Below, piece after piece: positions 9,775 to 32,000 of a stretch of DNA of 32,000 nt. The notes under the pieces were generated by a model. It ran no database searches. It had not been told where the DNA came from and saw only the letters and a list, made by a program, of their open reading frames with translations. The stretch lies in assembly GCF_000189295.2 (NCBI RefSeq), contig NC_016803.1:180001-212000 (forward strand), read 5' to 3'. Within the stretch, counting starts at the first letter, position 1. Each line of letters starts with the position of its first letter. The translations under genes were made by a program, and so were the position numbers. Source of the stretch: Pseudodesulfovibrio mercurii (GTDB lineage Bacteria > Desulfobacterota > Desulfovibrionia > Desulfovibrionales > Desulfovibrionaceae).

Positions 9775-9777
9775 TCC

Positions 9778-10923: not shown

Positions 10924-10963
10924 GCCGGTACGGGGAACAATCACGAAGTTCGACAACACAAGG

Positions 10964-11947: not shown

Positions 11948-11949
11948 TC

Positions 11950-12519: not shown

Positions 12520-12532
12520 GGAGAGCGATACA

Positions 12533-13225
12533 ATGAGTGCTTCCCTCAAGAAGGAATTCCTCAAGGGGTTGTGGGACGAGCTGCCGCCGTTCCGCGTGGT
12601 CCTCGGGCTGTGCCCGACCCTGGCCGTGACCTCCACGGCGGAGAACGGGTTCGGCATGGGCATGGCCGTGCTCTTCGTCCTGACCCTGTCCAACGCCATC
12701 ATCTCGGGCCTGCGCAAGGTCATTCCGTCCAAGGTGCGCATCGCCTGCTTCATCGTCATCGCGGCCTCCCTGGTGGTGGCCGTGGAACTGCTCATGCAGG
12801 CCTACACCTACTCCCTGTATCAGCGGCTCGGCATCTTCGTGCCGCTCATCGTGGTCAACTGCATCATCCTGGGCCGGGCCGAGGCCTTCGCCTCCAAGAA
12901 TCCCGTCCTGCCGTCCATCGCCGACGGCCTGGGCATGGGGCTCGGCTTCACCATGTCCCTGACCTTCCTGGGCGCGCTGCGCGAAGGGTTCGGCAACGGC
13001 ACCGTCTTCGGCGTGCCGGTGGCCTGGGACTCCTTCCAGCCCGCCCACTTCATGGTCATGGCCCCCGGCGCCTTCGTCTGCCTGGGACTGATCCTGGCGA
13101 GCATGAACGCGCTCAACCGTTACCTGAGCCGCCGCAAGGGCGAGCCGGAAACCGAGCCGCAGAACACGGCCTGCGCGTCCTGCGCGGGCTGCAACCTGTG
13201 CATCACGGCCAAGAGGGAGAGGTAG
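12533..13225 (+). CDS. rnfE: Rnf complex subunit E (NqrD-like)
   Basis: AAGGAGAG RBS. Signature VVLGLCPTLAVTS and LIVVNCIILGRAEAFA. Six hydrophobic helices. Confidence 0.85.
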   Translation: MSASLKKEFLKGLWDELPPFRVVLGLCPTLAVTSTAENGFGMGMAVLFVLTLSNAIISGLRKVIPSKVRIACFIVIAASLVVAVELLMQAYTYSLYQRLGIFVPLIVVNCIILGRAEAFASKNPVLPSIADGLGMGLGFTMSLTFLGALREGFGNGTVFGVPVAWDSFQPAHFMVMAPGAFVCLGLILASMNALNRYLSRRKGEPETEPQNTACASCAGCNLCITAKRER

Positions 13226-13228
13226 ATC

Positions 13229-13804
13229 ATGGATTACTTCATGCTGTTCATCTCGGCCATCTTCATCAACAACATCGTCCTGGTCCAGTATCTGGGCACC
13301 TGCCCGTTCATGGGCACGTCCAAGTCCACGGACGTGGCCATCGGCATGGGCGCGGCGGTCATCTTCGTCCTGCTCATGGCCACGGCCTTCACCTGGCCCC
13401 TCCAGCATTACGTGCTGACCCCCTATGGCATCGGCTACCTCCAGACCATCGTGTTCATCCTGGTCATCGCCTCCCTGGTCCAGTTCGTGGAACTGTTCCT
13501 GAAGAAGGTCATCCCGCCCCTGCATGCCTCGCTCGGTCTGTTCCTGCCCCTGATCACCACCAACTGCGCGGTCATGGGCGTGGCCATCATGGTCCAGCGC
13601 AGCAACTATTCGTTCGTCAAGGCGATGGCCTTCTCCCTTGCCTCTGGAGTCGGCTTCCTCATCGCCCTGGTCATCATCTCCGCCATCCGGGAGCGGCTCG
13701 ACGTCTCCCCGGTGCCGGTGGTCTTCCGCGGTATTCCGGTGGCGCTCATCACGGCGGGCATCATGTCGCTGGTCTTCCTCGCCTTCCAGGGCATGGCCGC
13801 GTAA
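13229..13804 (+). CDS. rnfA: Rnf complex subunit A (NqrE-like)
   Basis: Starts 3 nt after the rnfE stop. Signature NNIVLVQYLGTCPFMGTS and PLITTNCAVMG. Six hydrophobic helices. Confidence 0.85.
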   Translation: MDYFMLFISAIFINNIVLVQYLGTCPFMGTSKSTDVAIGMGAAVIFVLLMATAFTWPLQHYVLTPYGIGYLQTIVFILVIASLVQFVELFLKKVIPPLHASLGLFLPLITTNCAVMGVAIMVQRSNYSFVKAMAFSLASGVGFLIALVIISAIRERLDVSPVPVVFRGIPVALITAGIMSLVFLAFQGMAA

Positions 13805-13828
13805 CCGTACAAGCACAAGGACGAGATT

Positions 13829-15943
13829 ATGGTAGCCTCATCCATATTGGTTCTGTTTCTTCTGGGGTTGACGGCGGCCGCCATTCTGGCCGTGGCCTCC
13901 CGGATTCTCTACGTCAAGGAGGACCCCCGCGTGGCCAGGGTCGAAGCCTGCCTGCCCGGCGCCAACTGCGGCGGCTGCGGCTATCCGGGCTGCTCGGCGG
14001 CGGCCGCGGCCGTGGTCAGCGGCGACGCTCCGCCCGAGGTCTGCGTGGTGGCCAACCTGGAGACCTCGGCGCGCATCGCCGGGATCATGGGGGCCGAGGT
14101 GCAGTTCAAGGAGCCCAAGGTGGCCACGAACATATGCAGCGGCGGCTCCCGGGCCAACCTGCTGTTCGACTACAAGGGCGTGGAGGACTGCCGCGCCGAG
14201 GCGCTGCTCTACGGCGGCGAGAAGTCCTGCGGCATCGGCTGCATCGGGCTCGGCACCTGCGTCAAGGTCTGTTCGTTCAACGCCATTCGGTTGAGCGACG
14301 CGGGACTGCCCGTGGTGGACTGGAACGCCTGCCGGTCCTGCGGCAAGTGCGCCGAGGCGTGCCCCACCGGGGCCATCCGCATCTCCAGCGTGACCAGCGT
14401 GCTCCTGCACCTCAACCAGACCGACGACTGCCTGGCCCCGTGCATGCAGAAGTGCCCGGCCCAGATCAACGTGCGCCGCTACGTCCAGCAGCTCAAGCAG
14501 GGCGACATGCGCGGCGCGCTTCTGACCATCAAGGAGCACAACCCGTTGCCGCTCATCGTGGGCCGCGTCTGTCCGGCCCCGTGCGAAAACATCTGCCGGC
14601 GCAAGATCGTGGACGAGGGCGTGGCCATCCACACCCTGCAACGGTACGTGGCGGACTGGGAGATGCATTCGGGGACCCGCGTGGTCCTGCACTGCAATCC
14701 GCCCAGCGGCCACAAGGTGGCCATCATCGGCGGCGGTCCCGCCGGGCTGTCCTGCGCCTACTTCCTGCGCCGCGTGGGGCATGAGCCGGTCATCTTCGAG
14801 AAGCGTCAGCACATCGGCGGCATGATGCGCGGCGTCATCCCGGAATACCGGCTGCCCAAGAAGGTCGTGGACTGGGAGGTCCAGACCATCCTTAACCTCG
14901 GCGTGGAGACCCGCACCGGCGTGGCCTTCGGCCGGGACGTGACCCTGGCCGACCTTGAGAAGGAGGGGTTCGAGGCGGTCTTCATCGCCACGGGCGCCTG
15001 GAAGGTGCCCCCGCTCGGCATCGAGAACGACAACGCCGAGGGCGTGCTGGACGCCATCTCCTTCCTCTACGGCGTGGGCCGGGAATATACCGACCTGCGC
15101 GGCAAGACCGTGGTCGTGGTGGGCGGCAGCAACACCGCCATGGACGTGGTCCGCAGCGCCATCCGCCTCGGCGCCACGGCCATCGCCCTGGTGCCGAGCA
15201 TCCAGCGCAAGATGTCCGCCAACAAGGAGGAGATCCAGCGCGCCGTGGAGATCGGAGCCGACCTTCGCTACATGACCGCGCCCATCGGCCTGGTGGCCGA
15301 GGACGGGGCCGTGTGCGGCGTGACCTATTGCGACCTGGCCTACGACGACCCGGAAAAGGCCAAGGGCGGCCCCAACCCCGTCGCCGGGACCAAGTCCTTC
15401 GTGGCTGCCGACATGGTTATCGCGGCCACCGACCGTCTGGTGGACGACAGCCTGCTGCGCGACGCCGACGGCAAGCCTCTCTTCAAGATTGATAAGAAGA
15501 CCGGTGGGATCAGTGCAAACCCGACCACGTTGCAAACCGACATCCCCAACGTGTTCGTGGGCGGAGAAGTCCACACCGGCCGCAACATCCTCATACAGGC
15601 GGTGTCCGACGGACGCCGTGCCGCACGCTCCATCCACTTCTACGTCACCCAGGGAACGGTGCCGGAACCGGACAATCAGCAGGTCCAGGTCATCCCGGAA
15701 TCGATTCTCAAGGACATGCACGTAACATACTCCATCCCCAGGGTCCAAGAACCTCTGGTCAGCGTGGAGGAGCGGAAGCACACCTTCAAGGAGGAAGTGG
15801 CCGGTTCCATCACCTACGAAACGGCTCGGAAGGAGGCGAGCCGCTGCCTGCGATGCGGACTGACCTGTTACGACGCCGACGCCGGGGCCGAATACACCCG
15901 GGACGCCGACGTCAAGGTCATTGCCGAAGCGGGCAGGGAGTAA
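13829..15943 (+). CDS. rnfB: RnfB fused to a GltD-like (glutamate synthase small-subunit family) NAD(P)H/FAD iron-sulfur oxidoreductase, 704 aa
   Basis: AAGGA RBS. Residues 1 to about 190 are RnfB: TM anchor, CGGCGYPGCSAAA cluster motif, and ferredoxin motifs CIGLGTCVKVC and CRSCGKCAEACP. Residues from about 200 onward are GltD-like: CMQKCP...GRVCPAPCENIC, dinucleotide fold VAIIGGGPAGLSCAYFL...FEKRQHIGGMM...IPEYRLP, and a second Rossmann fold VVVVGGSNTAMDVVRSAIRLGA. The frame is uninterrupted. Confidence 0.8.
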   Translation: MVASSILVLFLLGLTAAAILAVASRILYVKEDPRVARVEACLPGANCGGCGYPGCSAAAAAVVSGDAPPEVCVVANLETSARIAGIMGAEVQFKEPKVATNICSGGSRANLLFDYKGVEDCRAEALLYGGEKSCGIGCIGLGTCVKVCSFNAIRLSDAGLPVVDWNACRSCGKCAEACPTGAIRISSVTSVLLHLNQTDDCLAPCMQKCPAQINVRRYVQQLKQGDMRGALLTIKEHNPLPLIVGRVCPAPCENICRRKIVDEGVAIHTLQRYVADWEMHSGTRVVLHCNPPSGHKVAIIGGGPAGLSCAYFLRRVGHEPVIFEKRQHIGGMMRGVIPEYRLPKKVVDWEVQTILNLGVETRTGVAFGRDVTLADLEKEGFEAVFIATGAWKVPPLGIENDNAEGVLDAISFLYGVGREYTDLRGKTVVVVGGSNTAMDVVRSAIRLGATAIALVPSIQRKMSANKEEIQRAVEIGADLRYMTAPIGLVAEDGAVCGVTYCDLAYDDPEKAKGGPNPVAGTKSFVAADMVIAATDRLVDDSLLRDADGKPLFKIDKKTGGISANPTTLQTDIPNVFVGGEVHTGRNILIQAVSDGRRAARSIHFYVTQGTVPEPDNQQVQVIPESILKDMHVTYSIPRVQEPLVSVEERKHTFKEEVAGSITYETARKEASRCLRCGLTCYDADAGAEYTRDADVKVIAEAGRE

Positions 15944-23995: not shown

Positions 23996-24271
23996 ATGCA
24001 ACAATGTGAAATGATCGTCAGCAAACTGGTGGACCAGGTCCGCGAGGACCAGCGTCCGGTCATGCGTCGACGCATTGAGGAGGCCGTGATCGAGCAGGCC
24101 GGGGCCGAGGGTCCCGACAGCCCGACCGCGCATCGCTTTCTCAAGGATCTGGACATCTTCGTGAACATGCGCGGGCCCGAGTTCATCTACTCGCGCGGCA
24201 TCGCCGAAAGCCTGCGCGTGGGCGAGGACATCTTCGAACTGGCCTACGTGATCAAGAAGGCCATGCAGTAA
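23996..24271 (+). CDS. Hypothetical soluble protein, 91 aa
   Basis: GGAG lies 7 nt upstream of ATG 23996. High GC3. Last ORF before a strong terminator. No recognisable family. Confidence 0.5.
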   Translation: MQQCEMIVSKLVDQVREDQRPVMRRRIEEAVIEQAGAEGPDSPTAHRFLKDLDIFVNMRGPEFIYSRGIAESLRVGEDIFELAYVIKKAMQ

Positions 24272-24343
24272 CCCCGGTCCTCAACCGGACCGGTCCCCTT
24301 CCGGACGCCCCTCCGACCCCAGGGGGCGCACCGGCGTTTACCA

Positions 24344-24384
24344 GGCGGGATGGATGCGGAACGCATCCATCCCGCCTCCTTTTT
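24344..24384 (+). terminator. Rho-independent terminator of the transporter operon
   Basis: ggcgggatggatgcg-gaa-cgcatccatcccgcc: a 15-bp perfect stem followed by tccttttt. Confidence 0.85.
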
Positions 24385-24612: not shown

Positions 24613-25140
24613 ATGATTTGTTTTTCCGACGGAGATGGCTGCTGGATACGAACGGGGCGTTTTCATGCGGGGTACGGACGCAACGCGCGAATGCGCATTC
24701 GGACGTTGTTGCCCGTGCTGGCCGCCTGGGTGCCGTTGATCTTCCCGTCCGAGGCGTTGGCGATCCAGACACATGGCGGGACTGAAGGCCTGTATGCGCA
24801 TCAGTTCGGTCACGTGTTGTTTTTCGTGGCGATGATCCTTTTGTATTTCCGCTTGCGGGGTCAAGCCGAATTCATGTCCCGGGGATGGCGCTATGTGACC
24901 ATATCCTGTCTGCTTTTCGCCGGCTGGAATGTGGTGGCGTTTACGGGTCACTGCCTGGAGGAGATGCTGTCCGTTCCCGTCTTTGCAGGCGGTTCGACCT
25001 GCTGGGAACGTGCCTTGTCCGATGCCACGGGGTGGAAGGGGCTTGTCCTCTATGTCTGCAAATTCGATCACCTGTTGGCGGTTCCCGCCATGCTCTACTT
25101 TTTGTTGGGGCTGAGGGCTTTTGCCAGGGAGCGCCAATGA
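24613..25140 (+). CDS. Small membrane protein (signal/anchor plus 3-4 TM), translationally coupled to the downstream kinase
   Basis: AAGGTGG lies 5 nt upstream of ATG 24613. ATG 24691 is an alternative start that would give MRIRTLLPVLAAWVPLIFPSEALA as a signal peptide. Hydrophobic helices HVLFFVAMILLYF, YVTISCLLFAGWNVVAF, LLAVPAMLYFLLGL. The stop overlaps the next ATG (ATGA at 25137). Confidence 0.55.
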   Translation: MICFSDGDGCWIRTGRFHAGYGRNARMRIRTLLPVLAAWVPLIFPSEALAIQTHGGTEGLYAHQFGHVLFFVAMILLYFRLRGQAEFMSRGWRYVTISCLLFAGWNVVAFTGHCLEEMLSVPVFAGGSTCWERALSDATGWKGLVLYVCKFDHLLAVPAMLYFLLGLRAFARERQ

Positions 25141-26252
25141 ATCAGTATTTACCCGAATTTCCTGTTGTCCTGGTCGATTTCCTGGGATCGTCCTCGATGA
25201 TCCTGCTGTCGTTTCTCGCCATCGGCTATGCATACAGGTTGTTGCGCGAAGAACCGAGGCAGTTGTTGTGGTCGTATCTCCTGATGTTCACGCTGGCGCT
25301 GGCGGCCTTTTCCGTCGGGCGGGGTGTCGGACATATCGTGCGCAATGTCCTGGTCAATACCGGACACCGGGAATTGTGGCTGTCCATCAGTCCATACAGC
25401 GGAGCGCTCAATACCATCACGTTCGTCATCATAGCAGCGATCACCTTTTACTATCATTTTGTGGAAAAGGCGTTCTTGCTGTTGAGACAGGCCAACTCCA
25501 AACTCGTTGGGGCGTTTGCCGAGATACGGCGAAACCGGGATCGGATCATTTTGCTGGAACGCTACGCCGTATGCGACAGGATGGCGGCGAAACTGGCTCA
25601 TGAAACGCGGAATCCGATTTTCACCATCGCCAATTTCGCCAAGTTGTTGCTTCGTAAACTCGAAAACGACGAGGCCTCGGCTGCGCATCTCAGGATCATC
25701 GTCGAGGAATCGCAAAAGCTCGAAGGCCTTATCGATGGCATCATGAAGGTGAGGCATGATCTGCCGCAACTCATGAAACGGGTTTCCGGCAGAGAGGTCC
25801 TTTCCGAATTGGAAGGAATCAGCATAAAAAAGGCGGAGGCCTCGGGGGTTGGGGTACGCGTGGCCCGACTGGAGGAGGAATTCTGGCTGTTCCTCGACAT
25901 CCGGAGCCTGTTGAGCGGCCTGACCGAACTCATCGTGAATGCGATCGAAGCCTCTTCCGAAGGGGATACGATCGACATTTCCGTCCTCCGCGAGGACAAT
26001 ATGGCCGTCTTTCGTGTTTCGGACAGGGGGAAAGGCATCCCTCAGAAGTCGCTGCCCAGGATATTCGAGCCTGGTTTCAGCACCAAACAGTTTTCCGCCG
26101 GCTTGGGGCTGGCCTATGCCAAGCAGATTCTGGAGGCGAATCATGGTGTGGTCAAGATCGAGTCCGTGCCGGGCGAGGGGACTCTGGCCATCGCCGCGTT
26201 TCCTTTGGACACGGACGAGGCGGAACATGCCTATGGCGCCCAGGAATCATGA
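25137..26252 (+). CDS. Membrane histidine kinase (about 4 TM, HisKA, HATPase_c) with no adjacent response regulator
   Basis: H-box AAKLAHETRNPIFTI. N-box ELIVNAIEA. G-boxes SDRGKGI and SAGLGLAYA. N-terminal hydrophobic helices. Visibly lower GC than the upstream genes. Confidence 0.8.
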   Translation: MNQYLPEFPVVLVDFLGSSSMILLSFLAIGYAYRLLREEPRQLLWSYLLMFTLALAAFSVGRGVGHIVRNVLVNTGHRELWLSISPYSGALNTITFVIIAAITFYYHFVEKAFLLLRQANSKLVGAFAEIRRNRDRIILLERYAVCDRMAAKLAHETRNPIFTIANFAKLLLRKLENDEASAAHLRIIVEESQKLEGLIDGIMKVRHDLPQLMKRVSGREVLSELEGISIKKAEASGVGVRVARLEEEFWLFLDIRSLLSGLTELIVNAIEASSEGDTIDISVLREDNMAVFRVSDRGKGIPQKSLPRIFEPGFSTKQFSAGLGLAYAKQILEANHGVVKIESVPGEGTLAIAAFPLDTDEAEHAYGAQES

Positions 26253-26323: not shown

Positions 26324-26366
26324 GCAAAAAGGGTTTACGGAGCATCTCCGTAAACCCTTGTCTTTT
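26324..26366. terminator. Bidirectional rho-independent terminator between convergent genes
   Basis: aagggtttacgga / tccgtaaaccctt: a 13-bp perfect stem with a 5-nt loop. An A5 run lies upstream and gtctttt downstream. Confidence 0.8.
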
Positions 26367-26460: not shown

Positions 26461-27663
26461 TCAGCCTTTCTTCCGGTTCGTGAGAATGATGTCTTTCGTT
26501 ATGTAGCGCATGATCGTCTTTTTCAGCGATTTTCCCGGCCAGCGTGTTGGCACGACGTAGAGCTTGATGCCGTGCAGCAGACCATGGAGCGCCAGCTGAA
26601 GCGAGAGCAGCCCTTTCTTCAGCGGCGGGGCGTGTCTGATCTTTCTCTTCAGGTGCTGCATCTTCAGATAGTTGTAGACCGGAAACGGCACCGCGCCGAG
26701 ACCGTCGCACCAGCAATCGTTGAGGCGTAAGATCAGGTCGTACAGGTCTTCGAACGTCAGTTGTTCCGGCGGGGAGAGCTGGGCCTCGGTCGGCGGGGAA
26801 AAGAGCGGACCGTCCTTGCCGAGATACTTGACGGCGACCGCGTTGTTCCCGGCCTCGCAGGAACGGAGAAATTCGATCCGTTGCCGCGGCGTCAGCAGCT
26901 TGTTCTCGGGGGGCGTGAAGTGGAGCTTTTCCACCACGTCGATGAGTTCCTTGAATTCACGCAACTGGCCGCCCTCTTCCGGCAGGGTGGCGTTGGCCCG
27001 CAACATGAACTCCATCAGTCGGGCGTCCATGCTCGTATTGACGCCGCGCGGCGGGCTTTTGAACGAGTCGTCCCACTGAATGCCCAAGGCGTCCGCGAAG
27101 TCGGTGAAAAGATTGCCGCCGACAAATGCTTTTTTATCGTAACACCTTACGATAATATTTTCTTTTCCGAACTGTTCCGCGAAAAAATCGACCATCGTTT
27201 CATAGTCGTAGTAGTTGGGATGGAAGAGTTCGTCGATGGCCGACGTCCCGAAGGGGATCACGCGCTTTCCGCCCCGGATCGCCTGCCGGTACATGGATTC
27301 GAGGTGGGTGTCCTGCCTGCGGAGATACAGGATCACCTTGATGCGCGGCGAGCCCACATACTGTCTGATCTGGTCGATTCTCGCCGGGTTGCCGTAGAGC
27401 CGTGTGCTCAGGCTTTCGTTGCTGACGAGGACCGTCTCCGATGTCGCGGAAGCGATCGCCTGCCGGGTGTTTTCCCAGCGTTCGGCCACCAGGCTGTCGG
27501 AGTCGTCGTCCGAAGGCCAGCATTCGGAAAGCAAATGGTTCTTGGTGCCGTAGACGATGCCATGCCGGGCGAGCTGATCCCGATTGAGTGAGAGAAATTC
27601 CTGTAAGGCGGTCGTTCCGGTTTTATGTAACCCGATGTGCATTATCAATAAGTTGGATTGCAT
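26461..27663 (-). CDS. Sulfotransferase-like P-loop protein, 400 aa
   Basis: N-terminal HIGLHKTGTTALQ resembles the 5'-phosphosulfate-binding loop (PKxGTT type) of sulfotransferases. A later YLRRQD...ES segment is consistent with the 3'-phosphate-binding region. The basic C-terminal tail may associate with the membrane. Confidence 0.55.
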   Translation of the reverse strand: MQSNLLIMHIGLHKTGTTALQEFLSLNRDQLARHGIVYGTKNHLLSECWPSDDDSDSLVAERWENTRQAIASATSETVLVSNESLSTRLYGNPARIDQIRQYVGSPRIKVILYLRRQDTHLESMYRQAIRGGKRVIPFGTSAIDELFHPNYYDYETMVDFFAEQFGKENIIVRCYDKKAFVGGNLFTDFADALGIQWDDSFKSPPRGVNTSMDARLMEFMLRANATLPEEGGQLREFKELIDVVEKLHFTPPENKLLTPRQRIEFLRSCEAGNNAVAVKYLGKDGPLFSPPTEAQLSPPEQLTFEDLYDLILRLNDCWCDGLGAVPFPVYNYLKMQHLKRKIRHAPPLKKGLLSLQLALHGLLHGIKLYVVPTRWPGKSLKKTIMRYITKDIILTNRKKG

Positions 27664-27746
27664 GGTGTCGCCTACAGGGGGGTAGCGTGTGCGGTTTGAA
27701 TTGTCTGCAAGGGCGCTCTTGTTGCCGATACGATGTCCACGCCGGA

Positions 27747-28001
27747 CTATTCCTTTTCAAGCACCTTGAAAAGATTCACCAGGGAAATGGTCATGTTCTC
27801 TTCGAGATTTCCGAAATTGAACGTATAGCCGTCCTGTTCCAGCTCCATCGCGAAGTGCAGCAAGGCAATGGAATCGATGATGTTGTCTTCAAAGATGGAG
27901 GACGTGTCGTCGTACACGGCGAGACTCGATATCCCCACGTTCTTGAATTGCTCTTCAAAGTTCTTCCAAAACAAGTTTTTGAATTCATCATACGTCAACA
28001 T
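27747..28001 (-). CDS. Acyl/peptidyl carrier protein (ACP-like), 84 aa
   Basis: Acidic small protein with the phosphopantetheine-attachment context NIIDSIALLHFAMELE (DS-I/L motif at the start of helix II). Confidence 0.7.
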   Translation of the reverse strand: MLTYDEFKNLFWKNFEEQFKNVGISSLAVYDDTSSIFEDNIIDSIALLHFAMELEQDGYTFNFGNLEENMTISLVNLFKVLEKE

Positions 28002-28727
28002 GTGTAACCCATCCTGATTTATTGCTATATGTCGTTTGTTTCAAGGCGCTTCCGCCAGCGCAATCATGGAAAATCGCTGTTGTTCATCGATGATATGGTC
28101 ATCTTTCCGGCGTGGTCGCTCGGATGTCGGGTCCACTCGCGGGCATCGAATTTGCCTCGAGGCCGCCGCCGTCGGGAGATGGGGTTCCAATCATAATGAT
28201 CATGGAGGCCATACGTAGATACGTTGCGTCCCGTCAAGTGGTGTCGTTCCGTCCCGGTCCAGGGGACGGTTGCCGAGAATGGTCTTGAAGGGCCGCCGTG
28301 GGCGGGACGACGGGACGCAGGGGGGAGAGTGGAGGCAGCGGAGGCGCCGCCTTTCGTTTCCGGAAGCGCCTCCGAAATGGCCCGTCCCCGCCGTCACGTG
28401 TCCCTCGCGGCGGGCCTTCATGGTGGGCGCGTCCACGACGGCAGGGGGGATACCCTCCGGCGGACGAGCCGCGCATGCAGTGCGGCGCCGAGGCGCGACT
28501 CGACAAACATCCCGTTGAACGGCGGTCCCGTTCGAGGTCGTGAGGTCCTTCCTCCAATGACGGCACGTCGGCGCAACGCCCGGATGTCCGGGCCGGTTCC
28601 GAAATCCGATTCGAACGGAGGGCAAGGGCTTTCAATGGCTCCCGATATTGCGGAAGGTCCCTGCCGGTATATTACCTCGAAAGCACCGATTCATCCTCGT
28701 CTCGTGGCGAGAGGATGCTCCGCCGCA
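28002..28727. other. GC-rich segment between the two ACP genes with no credible ORF; several stable stem-loops
   Basis: All ORFs here translate to Arg/Pro/Gly-rich low-complexity strings. A 10-bp perfect long-range pairing gcgtcccgtc (28226-28235) / gacgggacgc (28309-28318) encloses the hairpin ccgtccc-ggtccag-gggacgg (28249-28269). A further stem is ggaggcgc / gcgcctcc (28340-28373). Confidence 0.5.
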
Positions 28728-28985
28728 TTATGCATTCCTTATCTTTTCGATGGATGCGATGATGCTTTCTATGGAAGACCAATTCGTTGCGGCGTCGTCA
28801 TCCTCATCAATGGTGACGGAAATTTCATACACGTTTTCGATTTCAAAATAGAGATTCATCATGTCGAGTGAATCCATACCCTGGTCCTGAAGTCGTTTCT
28901 GGGAGTCCAGATTATCATAATCGACATCATAAGGATCAACGGTACGGATGATGTCGATGATTGCTTCCCGTGTTATGGAACTCAT
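28728..28985 (-). CDS. Acyl carrier protein, 85 aa
   Basis: Canonical motif DQGMDSLDMMNL. Acidic composition. The start codon overlaps the KAS III stop (TAATG). Confidence 0.8.
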   Translation of the reverse strand: MSSITREAIIDIIRTVDPYDVDYDNLDSQKRLQDQGMDSLDMMNLYFEIENVYEISVTIDEDDDAATNWSSIESIIASIEKIRNA

Positions 28986-29908
28986 TATTTTCTCCTTAAA
29001 GGGACGGAGGCGATGCTCAGGCCGGCCCCGAACCCCGTCAGCATGAGGTTGTTTTCGTTTGATTCAAAAAATCTGCACAACTCGATGGGAATCGTTGACG
29101 ACGAGGTGTTGCCATGGCGATTCGCCAGGAAAGGACACGCTTCCGGTCTGAGCTTCATCCGTTTTTGGAGGCAGTCCACGATATACTTGTTCGCCTGATG
29201 CAGGACGAAACAATCGACGTCTTCCTGTTCCAGGCCGTTTGCCTTGAGGCACTCCTCGATGTTGGGGGGCACATTGCGCAAGGCGAAGGTGTAGATGCCG
29301 AAGCCGTCCATCCTGAGATAGTCGTCGTGGGTGTGGATCAGGGCGTCTCCCATCTCTCCGAAAGTGTGGAAGGTGCCGCGGCCGATGTCGAAGACGCCGT
29401 CTTCGGCCAGATACGTCACGGTGGCCGCGTCGCTGGCGAAGATGTCTTCGTTCCGGGTGGTCTGATCGACCGCATCGGAGTAGGGGTCGCTGGTGAACAC
29501 GAGGCCATGCTTGAGACCCTGCGCCTCCATGAAGCTCTTCGCCATCACCAGAGAGTAGACGTAGCCCGAGCAGGCGAGGCCCACGTCATAGGTGGCGCAG
29601 TCCTTGCTCAGCTTCAGCGCCCCGTGCACGCGTGCCGACATGTGCGGGATGTACATGTCGGGGTGATGGGTGCAGACGCTGACGAAATCGATCTGCCCGA
29701 GATCAATCGGGGACTTGGCCAGGAGATCCTCCGCCGCCGCACAGCACATGGAAACAACGGTTTCCTCGCTTCCCCGGCGACGGAGTTGTTCAAAGCCGAC
29801 TTTTCGCTCAATGAATTCCCTGGTTACGCCCAGTTCCTCCGCCCGCGCCAGATTGTCGATGGTGTTTTCCGCGAGGTGGACCCCAATTGAGTGGACTGCA
29901 ATCGCCAT
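28985..29908 (-). CDS. 3-oxoacyl-ACP synthase III (FabH-like KAS III)
   Basis: Cys-His-Asn triad contexts: GLACSGYVY, FVLHQANKYI, HGNTSSSTIP. C-terminal LTGFGAGLS. 307 aa, typical length. Confidence 0.8.
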   Translation of the reverse strand: MAIAVHSIGVHLAENTIDNLARAEELGVTREFIERKVGFEQLRRRGSEETVVSMCCAAAEDLLAKSPIDLGQIDFVSVCTHHPDMYIPHMSARVHGALKLSKDCATYDVGLACSGYVYSLVMAKSFMEAQGLKHGLVFTSDPYSDAVDQTTRNEDIFASDAATVTYLAEDGVFDIGRGTFHTFGEMGDALIHTHDDYLRMDGFGIYTFALRNVPPNIEECLKANGLEQEDVDCFVLHQANKYIVDCLQKRMKLRPEACPFLANRHGNTSSSTIPIELCRFFESNENNLMLTGFGAGLSIASVPLRRK

Positions 29909-30501
29909 TATTTGGTCCTTGTGGAATAAATGCTTGCGACAACGCGGCCGTTGGCCTTCACTTCATTCAATATCATTTTGTTGGCGATCATGTTTTTGGT
30001 AGACCCACGGAGCTCGGGGGCACTCTCAAAGAAAGCGGGGGGGACATAGTACGTCACCTTGGCGAGCCACCAGAAGCCTCCGTCCGAGGAATCCGTGGAC
30101 TCCGCGATCATTGCGTCGGCGAGGCCCATGCAGATGGCGGGATACAAATGAGGCGGGTAATCGCTGAGGACGGCCTCGTCCGAATCAATGACCACGTTCT
30201 TGAGGTATTGCTTGGCATCGTCGGGACCGATCTCGGTCAGGGGTTCGTCAATCTCGACGACGCCGATCCTGTAGGATTTGTCACCTGATTTCAGCGTGAT
30301 GAGCACCGGTTGGTCGCGTTCGATCTCGGTTCTGAACTCGACTTGCGCCTTCAGAACGCCACGGAAGGTGATCTGTACCTCATCGTACATGGGCAAATCA
30401 AGCTGTTTCAGGACGGTCGGCAGGGCCTCAAGGAGCATCGTGCTGTTGACGTAGTCACGTTTCCCCTGCCGTTTGAAAGTGTATCTCGCTACGTTGGACA
30501 T
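29908..30501 (-). CDS. Hypothetical protein, 197 aa, no family recognised
   Basis: GGAGGGAA lies 5 nt upstream of the ATG at 30501. The stop overlaps the KAS III start (TAATG). Balanced amino-acid composition, consistent with a folded soluble protein. Confidence 0.6.
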   Translation of the reverse strand: MSNVARYTFKRQGKRDYVNSTMLLEALPTVLKQLDLPMYDEVQITFRGVLKAQVEFRTEIERDQPVLITLKSGDKSYRIGVVEIDEPLTEIGPDDAKQYLKNVVIDSDEAVLSDYPPHLYPAICMGLADAMIAESTDSSDGGFWWLAKVTYYVPPAFFESAPELRGSTKNMIANKMILNEVKANGRVVASIYSTRTK

Positions 30502-30525
30502 AAGTTCCCTCCGGGGTTGATCCGG

Positions 30526-31329
30526 TTACTTTTGATAGGGCCTCGAAGTCGGCAACACTCTCAGCCAGATGTATATATCCTTGGCCAGAATCTTGGTACA
30601 CTCGTCGTAGAAATTCCTTGCGCCCACCGAATAGACAAAACCCTTGCCTATGGGGGCCTTCAGTATGCTGGTTCCCCTTTTCTTCAGCTCTTCGACGATC
30701 TTCCTCACCCCATCGCGTTTGAGGCCGCAGTGCTCGTACCAGACGTGCCTGTAAAAGGGCTGGATGGAGACTTCGCCGTTGATCGAGATCGGGTGCATGT
30801 ACTCTTTCGTATACCTGTAGGGAACCCCCATGACATGTTCGACATGGTGGATCAGGGCCATGTTGCGGATGTCCTTCCCGAGACAGACGCAGAGCCCATC
30901 CAGCTCCACCACGCGGGCTTCCGGCGTCTCCGGCCCGAAGGCGTGGCGGGACACGTCCTTGCAGATGTAGTCGGCGTTTTTGCCGATGGCGGTGTAGGAG
31001 ACGAAGGGGTGGAAGCTGCGCACGGCCTCCGGTTTCCGGCGGATGTATTCCGTGAGCAGGCCGGTTTCGCTCGGCGTGTTGTCCGGGTCGTACGGGATAT
31101 CCGTGTTGCACAGGGACAAGGACGCCGTGGGGACGACCAGGGTTCCCTGCTTCAAGTCGATAAGCTCGCTCAGGGCATTGAAATGCGCTTCGAGGATGCT
31201 GTTGCGATCCCGTTTTTCGTAAGGGCCCAGCCGGAGCAGGTCGGTTCTTAGGATGACCGTTGCGCCCCGGCGGACTCCAACGGTGCTGTAGGCTTCAATC
31301 AGGTCGTCGTATGTATAGGGTTTATTCAT
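30526..31329 (-). CDS. AAC(3)-fold (aminoglycoside 3-N-acetyltransferase family) N-acyltransferase
   Basis: Start ATG at 31329, 4 nt after the upstream stop. Pattern matches AAC(3): GVRRGATVILRTDL, GTLVVPTAS, VRSFHPFVSYTAIGKNA, GPETPEARVVELDGLCVCLGKDIRNMALIHHVEH. Confidence 0.7.
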   Translation of the reverse strand: MNKPYTYDDLIEAYSTVGVRRGATVILRTDLLRLGPYEKRDRNSILEAHFNALSELIDLKQGTLVVPTASLSLCNTDIPYDPDNTPSETGLLTEYIRRKPEAVRSFHPFVSYTAIGKNADYICKDVSRHAFGPETPEARVVELDGLCVCLGKDIRNMALIHHVEHVMGVPYRYTKEYMHPISINGEVSIQPFYRHVWYEHCGLKRDGVRKIVEELKKRGTSILKAPIGKGFVYSVGARNFYDECTKILAKDIYIWLRVLPTSRPYQK

Positions 31330-31333
31330 GGTA

Positions 31334-32000
31334 TTATTCCCCGGCAGCGCCAGTTTCCTTGTGAACAATCTTTCTGTATACGGCCTTGATTTTCGCCTTG
31401 ACGCTGTCCATGGAGAACAGTTTGCCCGTCAGGTAGGCGAGCTCCCAGCTCTTCCAGAATCTGCCGCCTTCCAGCTCCATCAGGCGCTTGTCGGCGCGCA
31501 GGTGCTCGACGTAGTCGGTGTAAAGGACTTTGATCGCCTGTGAATGAAAAATGATATACGGATGCGACAGGATGTCGATCTCGTTCAGCAACCGCGTCCA
31601 CTGGTCCAGGAAAAATGCATTGTTTTCCATTGAGGGACAAAAGGATGTCCATCCCTTGGCCTCGTAGGTCCAGTCGTATATCGACCCGCTCAGGATGCCT
31701 TCCAGGGAACCGTCCAGTCCCACGATGGGCACAAACGGATACATCTTGCACAGCAGCGGTTTGGGAAAGGACTCGGAGCAGCTGCCGTTCAGGCCGCAAT
31801 GCGCCGTGACAATGCGCAGGTCCTCATCCTCCCCGAAATCCATCCGCATCTCTTTGGCGGGGAGGTCCATATCCTCGATCCTGGACTTGAAGTAGTCATA
31901 CTCATCCCCCATGAAGATCAACGTCGTCCCGGAGGTCGGCAGCATGTTGAACGCAATGTCGTCCACCAGATTCATATTGCAGCAGGACCCGCCGCGACAG
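31334..32000 (-). CDS. Cys-rich hypothetical protein, N-terminus outside window (possibly CxxCxxCC/YkgJ-like, unconfirmed)
   Basis: The frame stays open upstream of the listed ATG (31975) to the window edge, reading ...CRGGSCCNMNLVDD, and there is no RBS before that ATG. Later Cys contexts: HCGLNGSCSESFPKPLLCKMYPF. Confidence 0.5.
   Translation of the reverse strand, partial: CRGGSCCNMNLVDDIAFNMLPTSGTTLIFMGDEYDYFKSRIEDMDLPAKEMRMDFGEDEDLRIVTAHCGLNGSCSESFPKPLLCKMYPFVPIVGLDGSLEGILSGSIYDWTYEAKGWTSFCPSMENNAFFLDQWTRLLNEIDILSHPYIIFHSQAIKVLYTDYVEHLRADKRLMELEGGRFWKSWELAYLTGKLFSMDSVKAKIKAVYRKIVHKETGAAGE

What the first reader, a model, noticed from the sequence alone, without database searches (positions are those of the whole stretch)
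26461..32000. Orphan ACP-dependent acylation/sulfation cassette (Cys-rich protein, AAC(3)-fold transferase, unknown 197-aa protein, KAS III, two ACPs, sulfotransferase-like protein)
Seen in the sequence: the minus-strand genes are packed with 1-nt TAATG overlaps or 4-24 nt gaps. They encode a FabH-type condensing enzyme with an intact Cys-His-Asn triad, two dedicated carrier proteins with DSL/DSI serine motifs, an AAC(3)-fold N-acyltransferase, a P-loop sulfotransferase-like protein (HKTGTT), a Cys-rich protein and an unknown protein. The window shows no ketoreductase, dehydratase, enoyl reductase, glycosyltransferase or adenylating enzyme.
Established knowledge: KAS III plus a private ACP typically builds a short acetoacetyl/3-oxoacyl starter. 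AAC(3)-fold enzymes acylate amines of amino sugars or aminocyclitols.
Inference: the cassette makes a short ACP-bound acyl unit and installs it on an amine of a sugar or small molecule that is also sulfated. Targets could be a surface glycan, flagellin-glycan or lipid head-group modification, or a small natural product. I do not recognise this combination as a described pathway.
Basis: partly seen in the sequence, partly recalled or inferred. Interest (0 to 1): 0.75.

Follow-up and report, generated by a model that had tools for sequence, protein, structure and literature searches.

The report
Sugar-acid N-acylation module with carrier proteins
This gene block is not an orphan pathway: it is most likely the outer part of an imported surface-sugar (nonulosonic acid) gene cluster, and it appears to build an unusual acyl group on a small carrier protein and attach it to the sugar's amino group, a step that recurs widely in bacteria but has never been tested biochemically.

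Summary

Three details were wrong. A 726-nt non-coding gap and an 83-nt gap break the "tight packing". The Cys-rich ORF is cut by the window end. The "unknown" 197-aa protein is a compact double-hotdog protein of an unnamed family.

The window comes from Pseudodesulfovibrio mercurii ND132 (DND132_0191). The cassette has lower GC than the genes left of about 24 kb.

- **Closest relative.** It has the same genes in the same order. They follow a legionaminic-acid-type set plus a DltA-like adenylating enzyme and a TIGR04396 protein.
- **34 fully flanked loci of this AAC(3) subfamily.** 30 have a carrier protein within 5 kb. 30 have a KAS III or AMP-binding loader within 5 kb. 28 have nonulosonic-acid genes within 10 kb.

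Best reading: an N-acyl diversification module for a nonulosonic acid, with the acyl group probably donated from the carrier protein.

Campylobacter jejuni Cj1295–Cj1308 has a similar, still uncharacterised gene set.

The ND132 sequence upstream of the window could not be retrieved.

Verdict: new variant of a known kind, with moderate interest.

The parts
26329..26359 (.). Perfect 14-bp-stem hairpin followed by T-runs on both strands. It is a likely bidirectional terminator that closes the cassette against the convergent histidine kinase gene (24885-26252, + strand).
26461..27663 (-). 400-aa sulfotransferase-fold protein. It has an HKTGTT loop and an RRQDTHLES motif. The domain covers roughly residues 1-300. 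The last ~65 residues match the remnant copy in L003/L004.
   Evidence: Pfam Sulfotransfer_1 scores 19.5 bits, below the cut-off of 22. A family profile hits only sulfotransferases in the PDB: 3rnl at E 4.9e-7 and SULT2B1 at 2e-4. P0129 carries three tandem copies of the domain and passes the Pfam cut-off at 41 bits. Homologues lie inside nonulosonic-acid loci L021, L023 and L025, and an internally deleted copy lies in L003/L004.
27747..28001 (-). ACP2, an 84-aa carrier protein with an IIDSIA serine motif. In relatives it lies one gene (a decayed sulfotransferase-like remnant) upstream of the DltA-like adenylating enzyme.
   Evidence: PP-binding scores 17.4 bits, E 0.005, below the cut-off. 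It is 76% identical to the L004 orthologue, which lies upstream of the AMP-binding gene with only that decayed remnant between them. An iterated carrier-protein HMM picks it up. GC is 0.44.
28002..28727 (.). 726-nt non-coding spacer between the two carrier genes. Its core (28201-28640) is GC-rich. It is probably a rearrangement junction.
   Evidence: GC is 0.68 in 28201-28640 with no codon-position periodicity in any frame. There is no Rfam hit. No convincing similarity to any relative locus: only scattered short blastn/tblastx hits at E ≥ 0.008. Gene order is circularly permuted relative to L003/L004.
28728..28985 (-). ACP1, an 85-aa carrier protein with a GMDSLD serine motif. It is translationally coupled to KAS III by a TAATG overlap.
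   Evidence: PP-binding scores 22.7 bits, above the cut-off of 20.8. NCBIfam gives weak hits to AmcB, DltC and ACP models. A KAS III-carrier pair recurs in relatives.
28985..29908 (-). 307-aa KAS III (FabH-like condensing enzyme) with an intact Cys113-His237-Asn267 triad. It is divergent from housekeeping FabH.
   Evidence: Pfam ACP_syn_III_C hits at 5.7e-21 and ACP_syn_III at 1.2e-11. NCBIfam NF006829 scores 203 bits against a cut-off of 249. PDB 3gwa matches at 1.4e-39, with the CSG, HQAN and GNTS motifs aligned.
29908..30501 (-). 197-aa compact double-hotdog protein (DND132_0191). It belongs to an unnamed family of roughly 200-aa proteins with invariant G13, R15, Y17 and W144.
   Evidence: There are no Pfam, NCBIfam or PDB sequence hits. 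Only 7 hits appear among 1.84 billion representative proteins. The AF2 model has pLDDT 89.3 and pTM 0.85. Foldseek matches thioesterase II, FatA and polyketide-synthase dehydratase double hotdogs at E 2.5e-6 and weaker. It is homologous to the ~206-aa proteins next to the AAC(3)-fold gene in 18 other loci (hhalign probability 99.4%).
30526..31329 (-). 267-aa AAC(3)-fold (Antibiotic_NAT) N-acyltransferase. It belongs to a subfamily tied to nonulosonic-acid loci and is not a resistance enzyme.
   Evidence: PF02522 scores 115 bits. NCBIfam AAC_3 scores 84 bits against a cut-off of 270. PDB AAC(3) chains match at about 1e-13 with the HHxEH motif kept. At least 173 homologues exist at 42-55% identity.
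31334..32000 (-). Cys-rich protein with its 5' end cut by the window. The full length is about 242 aa in the orthologue. Its function is unresolved.
   Evidence: Alignment to L003 gives 60% identity with conserved CxGGxCCN and HCxLNGxC…PKPLLCKMYP motifs. There are no Pfam or NCBIfam hits. There is no PDB sequence hit. The single-sequence AF2 model has pLDDT 38. hhalign against E. coli YkgJ gives probability 0.3%. It is present in only 4 of 55 sources.

Best explanation
The block is the distal part of a horizontally acquired nonulosonic-acid glycan locus in Pseudodesulfovibrio mercurii ND132. The locus is of the legionaminic-acid type. The block acts as an N-acyl diversification module.

**Proposed steps**
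1. KAS III condenses a short acyl-CoA with malonyl-ACP1 to give a 3-oxoacyl-ACP1 such as acetoacetyl-ACP1.
2. In relatives, and probably just upstream in ND132, a DltA-like adenylating enzyme loads the second carrier, ACP2.
3. The small double-hotdog protein handles the carrier-bound thioester. It could dehydrate it, edit it as a thioesterase, or present it to the transferase.
4. The AAC(3)-fold enzyme transfers the acyl group to a free amino group (N5 or N7) of the nonulosonic acid or its nucleotide-sugar precursor. The group most likely comes directly from the carrier protein rather than from CoA. It would replace the usual acetyl group.
5. The sulfotransferase-fold protein adds a further decoration, either to a hydroxyl of the acyl chain or to the sugar.

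**Shown:** the fold and family of each protein, the intact catalytic motifs, the synteny, and the tight recurrent linkage of AAC(3)-fold gene, carrier, loader and nonulosonic-acid genes.

**Inferred:** the donor (acyl-carrier protein), the acceptor (a nonulosonic-acid amine), the chain made, the hotdog protein's role, sulfation, and the presence of sugar-pathway genes upstream in ND132 itself.
For: **Source and island.**
- The 197-aa ORF is DND132_0191 of P. mercurii.
- Cassette GC is 0.53-0.58, against about 0.60-0.70 across most of the rest of the window. GC3 is about 0.75 against about 0.9.
- Everything left of 24 kb is housekeeping: the Rnf complex, arginine decarboxylase and two-component systems.

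**Synteny in L004** (AAC(3)-fold protein 76% identical). The order is: CBS+NTP-transferase, Gfo/Idh/MocA oxidoreductase, CMP-sugar synthetase (CTP_transf_3), short-chain dehydrogenase, ACP2, AMP-binding, a 452-aa unknown, TIGR04396, Cys-rich, AAC(3)-fold, hotdog, KAS III, ACP1.
- The AMP-binding protein passes the amino-acid adenylation model TIGR01733 at 348 bits, above the cut-off of 317.
- The TIGR04396 hit scores 381 bits.

**Other contexts.**
- Fundidesulfovibrio: carrier, AMP-binding and AAC(3)-fold genes lie directly beside LegB/C/G/I/H-like genes and a PtmE-like gene.
- Magnetospira: PtmE-like gene, the 452-aa unknown, AAC(3)-fold gene, ketoreductase, hotdog, carrier and AMP-binding.

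**Statistics.**
- Of 54 loci, 43 have a carrier within 5 kb, 44 have a KAS III or AMP-binding gene within 5 kb, 41 have both, and 40 have nonulosonic-acid genes within 10 kb.
- Of 34 fully flanked loci the figures are 30, 30, 28 and 28.
- 26 of 33 carrier ORFs and 28 of 33 loaders lie less than 2.5 kb from the AAC(3)-fold gene.
- Minimal trios of carrier, AMP-binding and AAC(3)-fold genes (L006, L014, L029) argue that the carrier is the transferase's partner.
- Variants carry an HMG-CoA-synthase-like gene plus MaoC, a methyltransferase, or Cj1295-type DUF4910/DUF2172 proteins. This fits tailoring of different acyl chains on the carrier.

**Coupling of the AAC(3)-fold enzyme and the hotdog protein.** L003 and L004 are 96-100% identical in nucleotide sequence except for one swapped block. 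That block covers the last third of the AAC(3)-fold gene plus the hotdog gene.

**Precedent.** In C. jejuni, Cj1295 is needed for a 5-N-(2,3-di-O-methylglyceroyl) pseudaminic acid. It is proposed to remove the N-acetyl group so another acyl can be added. It lies next to the AAC(3)-like Cj1296/7 (PMC3068675).
Against: - No nonulosonic-acid gene lies inside the window. The ND132 sequence beyond 32000 could not be retrieved. Linkage in ND132 therefore rests on relatives.
- All known AAC(3)-fold enzymes use acyl-CoA. No fusion of this fold with a carrier protein was seen, and no interaction was tested.
- In C. jejuni NCTC 11168, Cj1296/7 was out of frame in both variants studied, including the one that makes the di-O-methylglyceroyl glycoform (PMC3068675, Table 1). 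That modification therefore does not need the full-length AAC(3)-like protein.
- In Acinetobacter, 7-N-(3-hydroxybutanoyl) legionaminic and pseudaminic acids are assigned to lgaH/I and psaG/H within the lga/psa modules; that paper never mentions an acyl carrier protein (PMC9676051).
- The His of the family's YLHGT motif is Asn in the ND132 hotdog protein. Its catalytic competence is therefore uncertain.
- The window contains no ketoreductase.
- The 726-nt junction and the permuted gene order could mean that the ND132 copy is rearranged.
Confidence: 0.6

Rival explanations
1. The AAC(3)-fold enzyme is an ordinary acetyl-CoA-dependent N-acetyltransferase of the sugar pathway, standing in for LegH or PseH. 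The KAS III, carrier and hotdog genes make a separate moiety, such as an O-acyl group, a lipid anchor or another substituent, which is attached by a different enzyme.
For: - Every characterised AAC(3)-fold enzyme, including FrbF, uses acetyl-CoA. This is established knowledge, and the PDB hits are all such enzymes.
- No PglD/LegH-like gene is seen in the 10 kb upstream in L004.
- No fusion of this fold with a carrier protein exists among the hits inspected.
Against: - L006, L012, L018, L020, L022 and L033 carry both a PglD/LegH-like acetyltransferase and the AAC(3)-fold gene, so the latter is not simply the replacement.
- 26 of 33 carrier ORFs lie within 2.5 kb of the AAC(3)-fold gene.
- Minimal trios of carrier, AMP-binding and AAC(3)-fold genes contain no other candidate transferase.
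Confidence: 0.15
2. The ND132 copy is a rearranged, decaying remnant of the glycan island and makes no product.
For: - A 726-nt non-coding junction lies between ACP1 and ACP2.
- Gene order is circularly permuted relative to L003/L004.
- Relatives show decay in the same region: a sulfotransferase pseudogene, a 166-aa AMP-binding fragment and an IS3 transposase.
Against: - All seven ORFs are intact. Catalytic motifs are kept.
- The overlaps suggesting translational coupling are preserved.
- A clean terminator follows the last gene.
- ND132 keeps the sulfotransferase-like gene intact, whereas relatives have lost it.
Confidence: 0.12
3. One reading: a stand-alone cassette that acylates and sulfates an amino sugar, aminocyclitol or small natural product unrelated to nonulosonic acids.
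For: - No sugar-pathway gene lies in the window.
- A few AAC(3)-subfamily loci with full flanks show no nonulosonic-acid gene within 10 kb: L008, L015, L032, L034, L036 and L051.
Against: - The closest relatives place the same genes in one same-strand gene array with CMP-sugar synthetase, PtmE-like and TIGR04396 genes.
- 28 of 34 fully flanked loci have nonulosonic-acid genes within 10 kb.
Confidence: 0.07
4. The AAC(3)-fold enzyme N-acetylates an aminoacyl group while it sits on the carrier protein. This would make, for example, N-acetyl-alanyl-ACP, which another enzyme then transfers to the sugar.
For: - The partner adenylating enzyme in L003/L004 passes the amino-acid adenylation model and resembles DltA.
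- AAC(3)-fold enzymes acetylate primary amines (established knowledge).
Against: - About half the loci use KAS III rather than an adenylating enzyme (21 KAS III against 26 AMP-binding). Their carrier-bound products would have no amine.
- The minimal trios contain no second transferase.
Confidence: 0.06

Closest known systems
[quoted passage not shown]
   Same: - It has a phase-variable AAC(3)-like gene, Cj1296/7, annotated as aminoglycoside N3'-acetyltransferase or N-acetyltransferase (PMC3025981, PMC3068675).
- That gene lies next to Cj1295, an aminopeptidase-like protein needed for a 5-N-(2,3-di-O-methylglyceroyl) pseudaminic acid (PMC3068675).
- acpP3 is Cj1304 (PMC4435418).
- From my memory of the genome annotation it also carries fabH2 (Cj1303), acpP2 (Cj1299), an amino-acid-activating enzyme (Cj1307) and another carrier (Cj1308).
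- Cj1295-type DUF4910/DUF2172 proteins occur in loci L016 and L010 of the subfamily studied here.
- All of this sits inside a pseudaminic/legionaminic acid locus.
   Different: - Sequence homology to the Campylobacter proteins could not be tested, because no Campylobacter sequence was available.
- No ~200-aa double-hotdog protein, Cys-rich protein or sulfotransferase is known to me there.
[quoted passage not shown]
- Cj1296/7 was out of frame in strains that make the known acyl variant.
Legionaminic-acid (CMP-Leg) biosynthesis loci, including the PtmE/PtmF/PtmB/PtmA set, with a TIGR04396 surface-carbohydrate protein
   Same: - In L004 the cassette follows these genes directly, on the same strand: CBS+NTP-transferase, Gfo/Idh/MocA oxidoreductase, CTP_transf_3 and a short-chain dehydrogenase.
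- In L006, L012, L018, L020, L022 and L033 it lies beside NeuB, Epimerase_2, DegT and PglD-like genes.
   Different: The canonical pathway installs only N-acetyl groups from acetyl-CoA. It needs no carrier protein, KAS III, adenylating enzyme, hotdog protein or AAC(3)-fold enzyme.
Aeromonas group II flagellin glycosylation islands
   Same: A carrier protein, a 3-oxoacyl-ACP reductase and an AMP-dependent synthetase, plus luxE and luxC, lie between the pseudaminic acid genes. They are of unknown function (PMC7874193).
   Different: No AAC(3)-fold enzyme is reported in that paper. The term 'aminoglycoside' does not occur in it. No KAS III is listed either.
Aminoglycoside 3-N-acetyltransferases and FrbF (Antibiotic_NAT, PF02522)
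   Same: The fold and the HHxEH catalytic motif are shared.
   Different: - The score is far below the resistance-enzyme cut-offs (84 vs 270 bits).
- The genomic context is glycan biosynthesis.
- The proposed donor is a carrier-protein thioester rather than acetyl-CoA. This is untested.
Acinetobacter baumannii lgaH/lgaI and psaG/psaH modules for 7-N-(3-hydroxybutanoyl) legionaminic and pseudaminic acids
   Same: The outcome is the same in kind: a nonulosonic acid that carries a non-acetyl N-acyl group (PMC9676051).
   Different: The route is different. There, alternative genes replace lgaD/lgaE or psaD/psaE within the lga/psa modules, and the paper never mentions an acyl carrier protein. I did not check those loci for KAS III or AAC(3)-fold genes.

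Membership tests
AAC(3) / Antibiotic_NAT fold (PF02522) | Pfam domain above the gathering score and over its full length | tested here: met
   115.1 bits against a cut-off of 25, covering profile positions 6-231 of 232. 21 PDB AAC(3), FrbF or YokD chains match at E ≤ 1.7e-5.
AAC(3) / Antibiotic_NAT fold (PF02522) | Conserved His/Glu catalytic motif (HHxEH) | tested here: met
   LIHHVEH aligns to LLHHAEH of 5ht0. H161 and H162 are nearly invariant and E164 is invariant across 34 subfamily members.
Aminoglycoside-resistance AAC(3) enzymes (NCBIfam equivalogs) | Score above the curated cut-off of an AAC(3) resistance model | tested here: not met
   The best model is NF033082 at 84.4 bits against a cut-off of 270. 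The protein should not be filed as a resistance gene.
KAS III / FabH | ACP_syn_III and ACP_syn_III_C domains plus the Cys-His-Asn triad | tested here: met
   Both domains are above their cut-offs. C113, H237 and N267 align with the CSG, HQAN and GNTS motifs of FabH structures.
KAS III / FabH | Housekeeping FabH model cut-off | tested here: not met
   NF006829 scores 203.5 against 249, and TIGR00747 scores 164 against 292. This is a divergent, pathway-dedicated KAS III.
Acyl/peptidyl carrier proteins (PP-binding) | Pfam PP-binding above the cut-off and a serine attachment motif | tested here: inconclusive
   ACP1 scores 22.7 bits against 20.8 and has a DSL motif, so it meets the test. ACP2 scores 17.4 bits, which is below the cut-off, but it has a DSI motif and is found by an iterated local carrier-protein HMM.
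PAPS-dependent sulfotransferases | Family-level sequence match | tested here: inconclusive
   The single protein scores 19.5 bits against a cut-off of 22 and has no PDB hit. A profile of 8 domain copies hits only sulfotransferases: 3rnl at 4.9e-7 and SULT2B1 at 2e-4. The three-domain relative P0129 passes Pfam at 41 bits.
PAPS-dependent sulfotransferases | PAPS-binding loops (5'-PSB and 3'-PB) and sulfotransfer activity | not testable with these tools
   HKTGTT aligns to AAKCGTSS. LRRQDTHLES aligns to the RNPxDRxxS region of 3rnl. Activity is untested.
Hotdog-fold thioesterases / dehydratases | Double-hotdog fold | tested here: met
   The AF2 model has pLDDT 89.3. 74 PDB matches have E ≤ 1e-3; all of the 50 listed are double-hotdog thioesterases, dehydratases/hydratases or related hotdog-fold proteins. 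TMq is about 0.5.
Hotdog-fold thioesterases / dehydratases | Membership of a named sequence family, or conserved catalytic residues of dehydratase or thioesterase types | tested here: not met
   There are no Pfam, NCBIfam or PDB sequence hits. Only G13, R15, Y17 and W144 are invariant or nearly so. The His of the YLHGT motif is Asn in the ND132 protein.
Nonulosonic-acid (legionaminic-type) glycan locus | NeuB-type synthase, CMP-sugar synthetase, hydrolysing 2-epimerase, aminotransferase and PtmE-like NTP-transferase adjacent to the cassette | tested here: inconclusive
   These genes are absent from the window. They are present next to the orthologous cassette in L004 and L026 and in 28 of 34 fully flanked subfamily loci. 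The ND132 sequence beyond 32000 could not be obtained.
C. jejuni Cj1295-Cj1308 type flagellin-glycan modification module | Sequence homology of the AAC(3)-like, FabH2 and carrier proteins; flagellin as target | not tested
   Only annotation-level comparison was possible (PMC3025981, PMC3068675, PMC4435418). Flagellin genes lie within 10 kb only in L019 and L028.
YkgJ / CxxCxxCC metal-chelating domain (PF03692), considered for the Cys-rich protein | Pfam hit or profile similarity to YkgJ | tested here: not met
   No Pfam hit was found (at E ≤ 0.05 for the full-length L003 orthologue, at E ≤ 0.01 for the window copy). hhalign against E. coli YkgJ gives probability 0.3%. The resemblance is at motif level only.

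The most novel reading that the evidence does not exclude
A branch of the AAC(3) antibiotic-acetyltransferase fold has been recruited as a carrier-protein-dependent N-acyltransferase. It installs custom fatty-acid-like, polyketide-like or aminoacyl chains on nonulosonic acids. It works with a previously undescribed mini double-hotdog partner whose gene is swapped together with the transferase's C-terminus. In ND132 the chain or the sugar is additionally sulfated. If so, this one module, found in this scan across at least nine bacterial lineages, would account for much of the unexplained N-acyl diversity of these surface sugars.
Probability: 0.4. Interest if true: 0.7.

Novelty: new variant of a known kind. 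Interest (0 to 1): 0.55.

Why it matters
Nonulosonic acids such as pseudaminic and legionaminic acid decorate flagella, capsules and lipopolysaccharide. Their N-acyl groups decide recognition by antibodies, phages and host lectins.

How the non-acetyl groups are installed is known for only a few cases.

This locus points to a compact and very widespread module: an AAC(3)-fold transferase, a dedicated carrier protein, a KAS III or adenylating loader, and often a mini double-hotdog protein. The module is a concrete candidate for that step, and it can be tested directly in vitro.

There is also a practical point for resistance-gene surveys. "AAC(3) family" hits of this subfamily are glycan enzymes, not aminoglycoside resistance genes.

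Tried and rejected
**Getting the ND132 sequence beyond 32000 failed.**
- An exact-protein look-up of KAS III and of the AAC(3)-fold protein found nothing.
- The look-up of DND132_0191 gave only ~1.3-kb Logan contigs.
- A genome-contig scan with the Cys-rich alignment found nothing.

**Other scans and searches that gave nothing.**
- Metagenome-contig scans with the Cys-rich alignment and with the sulfotransferase-like protein found nothing. The alignment A6 was too divergent to scan with.
- A literature search for DND132_019x returned nothing.

**A wasted search.** My last homologous-protein run used a chimeric query: sulfotransferase-like + Cys-rich + the 452-aa unknown, joined by GGS linkers. 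The candidate cap was swamped and only three long proteins came back. This gave useful sulfotransferase-domain relatives. It gave nothing on the Cys-rich family, the 452-aa family or the ND132 orthologues.

**Cys-rich protein.**
- The idea that it is a YkgJ/FliB-type CxxCxxCC protein was not supported.
- Single-sequence AF2 was unusable, with pLDDT 38.

**The 726-nt gap.** It has no Rfam hit. It has no convincing similarity to any relative locus or protein: only scattered short hits at E ≥ 0.008. It shows no coding periodicity. I therefore rejected a decayed AMP-binding gene as its origin.

**The 452-aa conserved neighbour.** It lies outside the window. It has no PDB, Pfam or NCBIfam match. 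A de-N-acetylase role is only a guess based on its conserved Asp, Glu and His residues.

**Rosetta-stone fusions.** I looked for fusions of the AAC(3)-fold enzyme with a carrier protein among the longer homologues and found none.

**Structure prediction.** A 7-sequence alignment worked.

Full report
**1. What is in the sequence**

Seven minus-strand ORFs occupy 26461-32000:
- a 400-aa protein at 26461-27663;
- an 84-aa protein at 27747-28001;
- an 85-aa protein at 28728-28985;
- a 307-aa protein at 28985-29908;
- a 197-aa protein at 29908-30501;
- a 267-aa protein at 30526-31329;
- an ORF that runs from 31334 off the window end.

Two are not. ACP1 and ACP2 are separated by 726 nt, and ACP2 and the last gene by 83 nt.

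The core of the long gap (28201-28640) has GC 0.68 and no codon-position periodicity in any frame. It has no Rfam match. It has no convincing similarity to any related locus: only scattered short hits at E ≥ 0.008.

A perfect 14-bp hairpin at 26329-26359 lies between the last gene and a convergent histidine kinase gene.

The ORFs are real genes. GC3 (0.72-0.77) exceeds GC2 in the five larger ORFs, and is 0.49 vs 0.32 in the short ACP1 frame. They are conserved at 60-76% amino-acid identity in other contigs.

**2. Protein identities**

- **KAS III.** Both Pfam domains hit. C113, H237 and N267 align with the catalytic triad of FabH structures. The protein falls below the housekeeping FabH cut-offs, so it is a dedicated, divergent KAS III.
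- **AAC(3)-fold protein.** It is a full-length PF02522 domain at 115 bits. The HHxEH motif is kept. It scores far below every resistance-enzyme model, at 84 against 270 bits.
- **Carrier proteins.** ACP1 passes PP-binding. ACP2 does not quite pass (17.4 vs 20.8 bits), but it has the serine motif and is found by an iterated carrier-protein HMM.
- **400-aa protein.** On its own it is below the Pfam sulfotransferase cut-off and has no PDB hit. A profile built from it and seven related domain copies hits only sulfotransferases in the PDB: 3rnl at E 4.9e-7 and SULT2B1 at 2e-4. A 1612-aa relative with three tandem copies passes Pfam Sulfotransfer_1. The sulfotransferase fold is therefore supported. 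Activity is untested.
- **197-aa "unknown".** It has no Pfam, NCBIfam or PDB sequence match. Only seven hits appear among 1.84 billion representative proteins. An AlphaFold2 model from seven sequences is confident, with pLDDT 89.3 and pTM 0.85. It is a compact double hotdog. All of the 50 listed Foldseek matches are double-hotdog thioesterases (TesB-like, FatA), polyketide-synthase dehydratase domains or related hotdog-fold proteins.
- **Cys-rich protein.** It is cut by the window end and remains unresolved.

**3. Where it comes from**

The 197-aa protein is DND132_0191 of Pseudodesulfovibrio mercurii ND132.

The cassette has GC 0.53-0.58, and the two carrier genes 0.42-0.44. Most of the rest of the window is at about 0.60-0.70. 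GC3 is about 0.75 against about 0.9.

Everything left of about 24 kb is ordinary chromosome: the Rnf complex, arginine decarboxylase, two-component systems and transporters. This fits a horizontally acquired island whose proximal part lies beyond the window.

I could not obtain the ND132 sequence beyond 32000.

**4. Relatives show the rest of the locus**

Two Pseudodesulfovibrio-like contigs, L003 and L004, carry the orthologous genes.

In L004 the same-strand gene order is:
1. CBS+NTP-transferase (PtmE-like)
2. Gfo/Idh/MocA oxidoreductase
3. CTP_transf_3 (CMP-sugar synthetase)
4. short-chain dehydrogenase
5. an AMP-binding fragment
6. ACP2
7. a 531-aa AMP-binding enzyme
8. a 452-aa unknown
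9. a 459-aa protein
10. Cys-rich protein
11. AAC(3)-fold protein
12. hotdog protein
13. KAS III
14. ACP1
15. an IS3 transposase on the opposite strand

The AMP-binding enzyme passes the amino-acid adenylation model (TIGR01733, 348 bits) and resembles DltA. The 459-aa protein is TIGR04396, "surface carbohydrate biosynthesis protein", at 381 bits.

The first four genes are the gene set typical of legionaminic-acid loci. That identification rests on my own knowledge of the Campylobacter ptm genes.

The stretch between ACP2 and the AMP-binding gene in L003/L004 is an internally deleted copy of the sulfotransferase-like gene. The sulfotransferase therefore belongs ancestrally to this cluster type, with the order ACP2, sulfotransferase, AMP-binding. 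ND132 keeps it intact, but in a circularly permuted arrangement: ACP1, gap, ACP2, sulfotransferase, terminator.

**5. The association is general**

The AAC(3)-fold protein has at least 173 homologues at 42-55% identity.

Two annotated contexts were inspected:
- **Fundidesulfovibrio**: carrier, AMP-binding and AAC(3)-fold genes lie directly beside LegB/C/G/I/H-like genes and a PtmE-like gene.
- **Magnetospira**: PtmE-like gene, the 452-aa unknown, AAC(3)-fold gene, ketoreductase, a 206-aa unknown, carrier, AMP-binding and MaoC.

A scan of species-representative genomes gave 49 more loci. They come from Desulfobacterota, Alpha- and Gammaproteobacteria, Verrucomicrobiota, Planctomycetales, Dehalococcoidales, Latescibacterota, Saccharibacteria and Armatimonadia.

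Local BLAST and HMM annotation gave these counts:

| Feature near the AAC(3)-fold gene | All 54 loci | 34 fully flanked loci |
|---|---|---|
| Carrier-protein ORF within 5 kb | 43 | 30 |
| KAS III or AMP-binding within 5 kb | 44 (21 KAS III, 26 AMP-binding) | 30 |
| Both of the above | 41 | 28 |
| Nonulosonic-acid pathway gene within 10 kb | 40 | 28 |

Many of the exceptions in the full set are contigs too short to carry full flanks; 11 of the 34 fully flanked loci also miss at least one of the three features. In the fully flanked loci, 26 of 33 carrier ORFs and 28 of 33 loaders lie within 2.5 kb of the AAC(3)-fold gene.

The ~206-aa unknowns next to the AAC(3)-fold gene in 18 loci are homologous to the ND132 197-aa protein (hhalign probability 99.4%, E 7e-22). 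G13, R15, Y17 and W144 are invariant or nearly so.

Other variants carry an HMG-CoA-synthase-like gene plus MaoC, a methyltransferase, a metallo-β-lactamase-fold protein, or Cj1295-type DUF4910/DUF2172 proteins.

L003 and L004 are 96-100% identical in nucleotide sequence except for one ~950-bp block. The block comprises the last third of the AAC(3)-fold gene plus the whole hotdog gene. This is a cassette swap that couples the two proteins.

Flagellin genes lie within 10 kb in only two loci, Rheinheimera and Psychrosphaera. The final glycoconjugate is therefore undetermined for ND132.

**6. How it most likely works**

Shown:
- the folds and the intact motifs;
- the tight recurrent linkage of AAC(3)-fold enzyme, carrier protein, loader and nonulosonic-acid genes.

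Inferred:
- A non-acetyl acyl group is assembled or loaded on a dedicated carrier. KAS III would make a 3-oxoacyl-ACP1. A DltA-like enzyme would charge ACP2.
- The group is tailored, possibly by the hotdog protein, and in other loci by a ketoreductase, an HMG-synthase-like enzyme or a methyltransferase.
- The AAC(3)-fold enzyme then transfers it to a free amine of the nonulosonic acid or its precursor.
- The sulfotransferase-fold protein adds a further decoration.

The minimal trios of carrier, AMP-binding and AAC(3)-fold genes are the strongest argument that the carrier thioester is the donor. Against this, every characterised AAC(3)-fold enzyme uses acyl-CoA, and nothing here tests the donor.

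**7. Comparison with what is known**

- **Campylobacter jejuni.** The nearest described thing is the Cj1295-Cj1308 part of the flagellin glycosylation locus. Cj1296/7 is annotated as an aminoglycoside N3'-acetyltransferase or N-acetyltransferase and is phase-variable (PMC3025981, PMC3068675). Cj1295, an aminopeptidase-like protein, is required for 5-N-(2,3-di-O-methylglyceroyl) pseudaminic acid and was proposed to remove the N-acetyl group so that another acyl can be added (PMC3068675). acpP3 is Cj1304 (PMC4435418). From memory of the annotation, the locus also carries fabH2, further carriers and an amino-acid-activating enzyme. [quoted passage not shown] Notably, Cj1296/7 was out of frame in both variants analysed by Hitchen et al. 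The known glyceroyl modification therefore does not need it.
- **Aeromonas.** Its flagellin islands carry a carrier protein, a ketoreductase and an AMP-dependent synthetase of unknown role (PMC7874193).
- **Acinetobacter.** 7-N-(3-hydroxybutanoyl) derivatives are assigned to alternative lga and psa genes, and that paper never mentions an acyl carrier protein (PMC9676051).
- **Literature searches.** Full-text searches that combined nonulosonic, legionaminic or pseudaminic acid with carrier-protein terms, and in one case also aminoglycoside acetyltransferase, found no paper describing this module.

**8. Verdict**

It is wrong on spacing and on completeness.

It is wrong to call the cassette orphan or unprecedented.

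The cassette is a new variant of a known kind of system, nonulosonic-acid modification loci. It has three features that appear undescribed:
- the breadth of the AAC(3)-fold plus carrier-protein module;
- the mini double-hotdog family;
- a sulfotransferase embedded in such loci.

Interest is moderate, at 0.55. The module is testable and it bears on an open question in bacterial glycobiology. The key mechanistic step is still inferred, and the ND132 context rests on relatives.

Noticed in passing
L003:7085-8040 vs L004:10450-11400: Two otherwise 96-100% identical clusters differ by one swapped ~950-bp block at 48-82% identity. The block covers the last third of the AAC(3)-fold gene plus the whole hotdog gene. 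This suggests recombinational exchange of a specificity unit.
   Followed up: partly
L003:459-1059 and L004:3829-4429: The "intergenic" DNA between ACP2 and the AMP-binding gene is an internally deleted copy of the sulfotransferase-like gene. Residues 1-129 and 336-399 are kept and the middle is lost. ND132 retains the intact gene but in a circularly permuted order.
   Followed up: yes
window 28002-28727: A 726-nt spacer lies between the two low-GC carrier genes. Its core (28201-28640) is GC-rich (0.68) and non-coding. It has no convincing similarity to anything fetched (only scattered short hits at E ≥ 0.008). It is possibly the junction of the rearrangement.
   Followed up: partly
L012:10834-14467; L016:12595-16096; L010:12528-13910; L018:12584-13567: Other versions of the module carry an HMG-CoA-synthase-like gene plus a MaoC dehydratase (β-branching type), a metallo-β-lactamase-fold protein, a SAM methyltransferase, and Cj1295-type DUF4910/DUF2172/M28-like proteins.
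   Followed up: partly
P0129 (1612 aa, ENA contig of 22 kb): This giant protein has three tandem copies of the same sulfotransferase-like domain, each 27-30% identical to the ND132 protein.
   Followed up: partly
L004:6486-7844, L007:8583-9941 and 12 other loci: A conserved ~450-aa protein often sits directly upstream of the AAC(3)-fold gene. It has many invariant Asp, Glu and His residues, including an N-terminal VDTEGP motif. It has no Pfam, NCBIfam or PDB match. It is a candidate de-N-acetylase, but this is only a guess.
   Followed up: partly
window 24885-26252 (+): The histidine kinase convergent with the cassette has the island's lower GC (0.56) and GC3 (0.64), not the host's. It may have arrived with the island.
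   Followed up: no
window 24343-24377: A perfect 16-bp inverted repeat with a 3-nt loop lies downstream of the small ORF 23996-24271, near where GC starts to fall.
   Followed up: no
window 9199-15943: A multihaem cytochrome c gene is followed by Rnf-type genes, ending in a 704-aa Fe-S/flavin oxidoreductase. This is ordinary energy-metabolism context, unrelated to the finding.
   Followed up: no
L019:782-5219 and L028:911-4658: Several tandem flagellin genes lie within 10 kb of the AAC(3)-fold gene in Rheinheimera and Psychrosphaera. In these two genomes the module therefore lies beside flagellin genes, which suggests a flagellin glycosylation island.
   Followed up: partly
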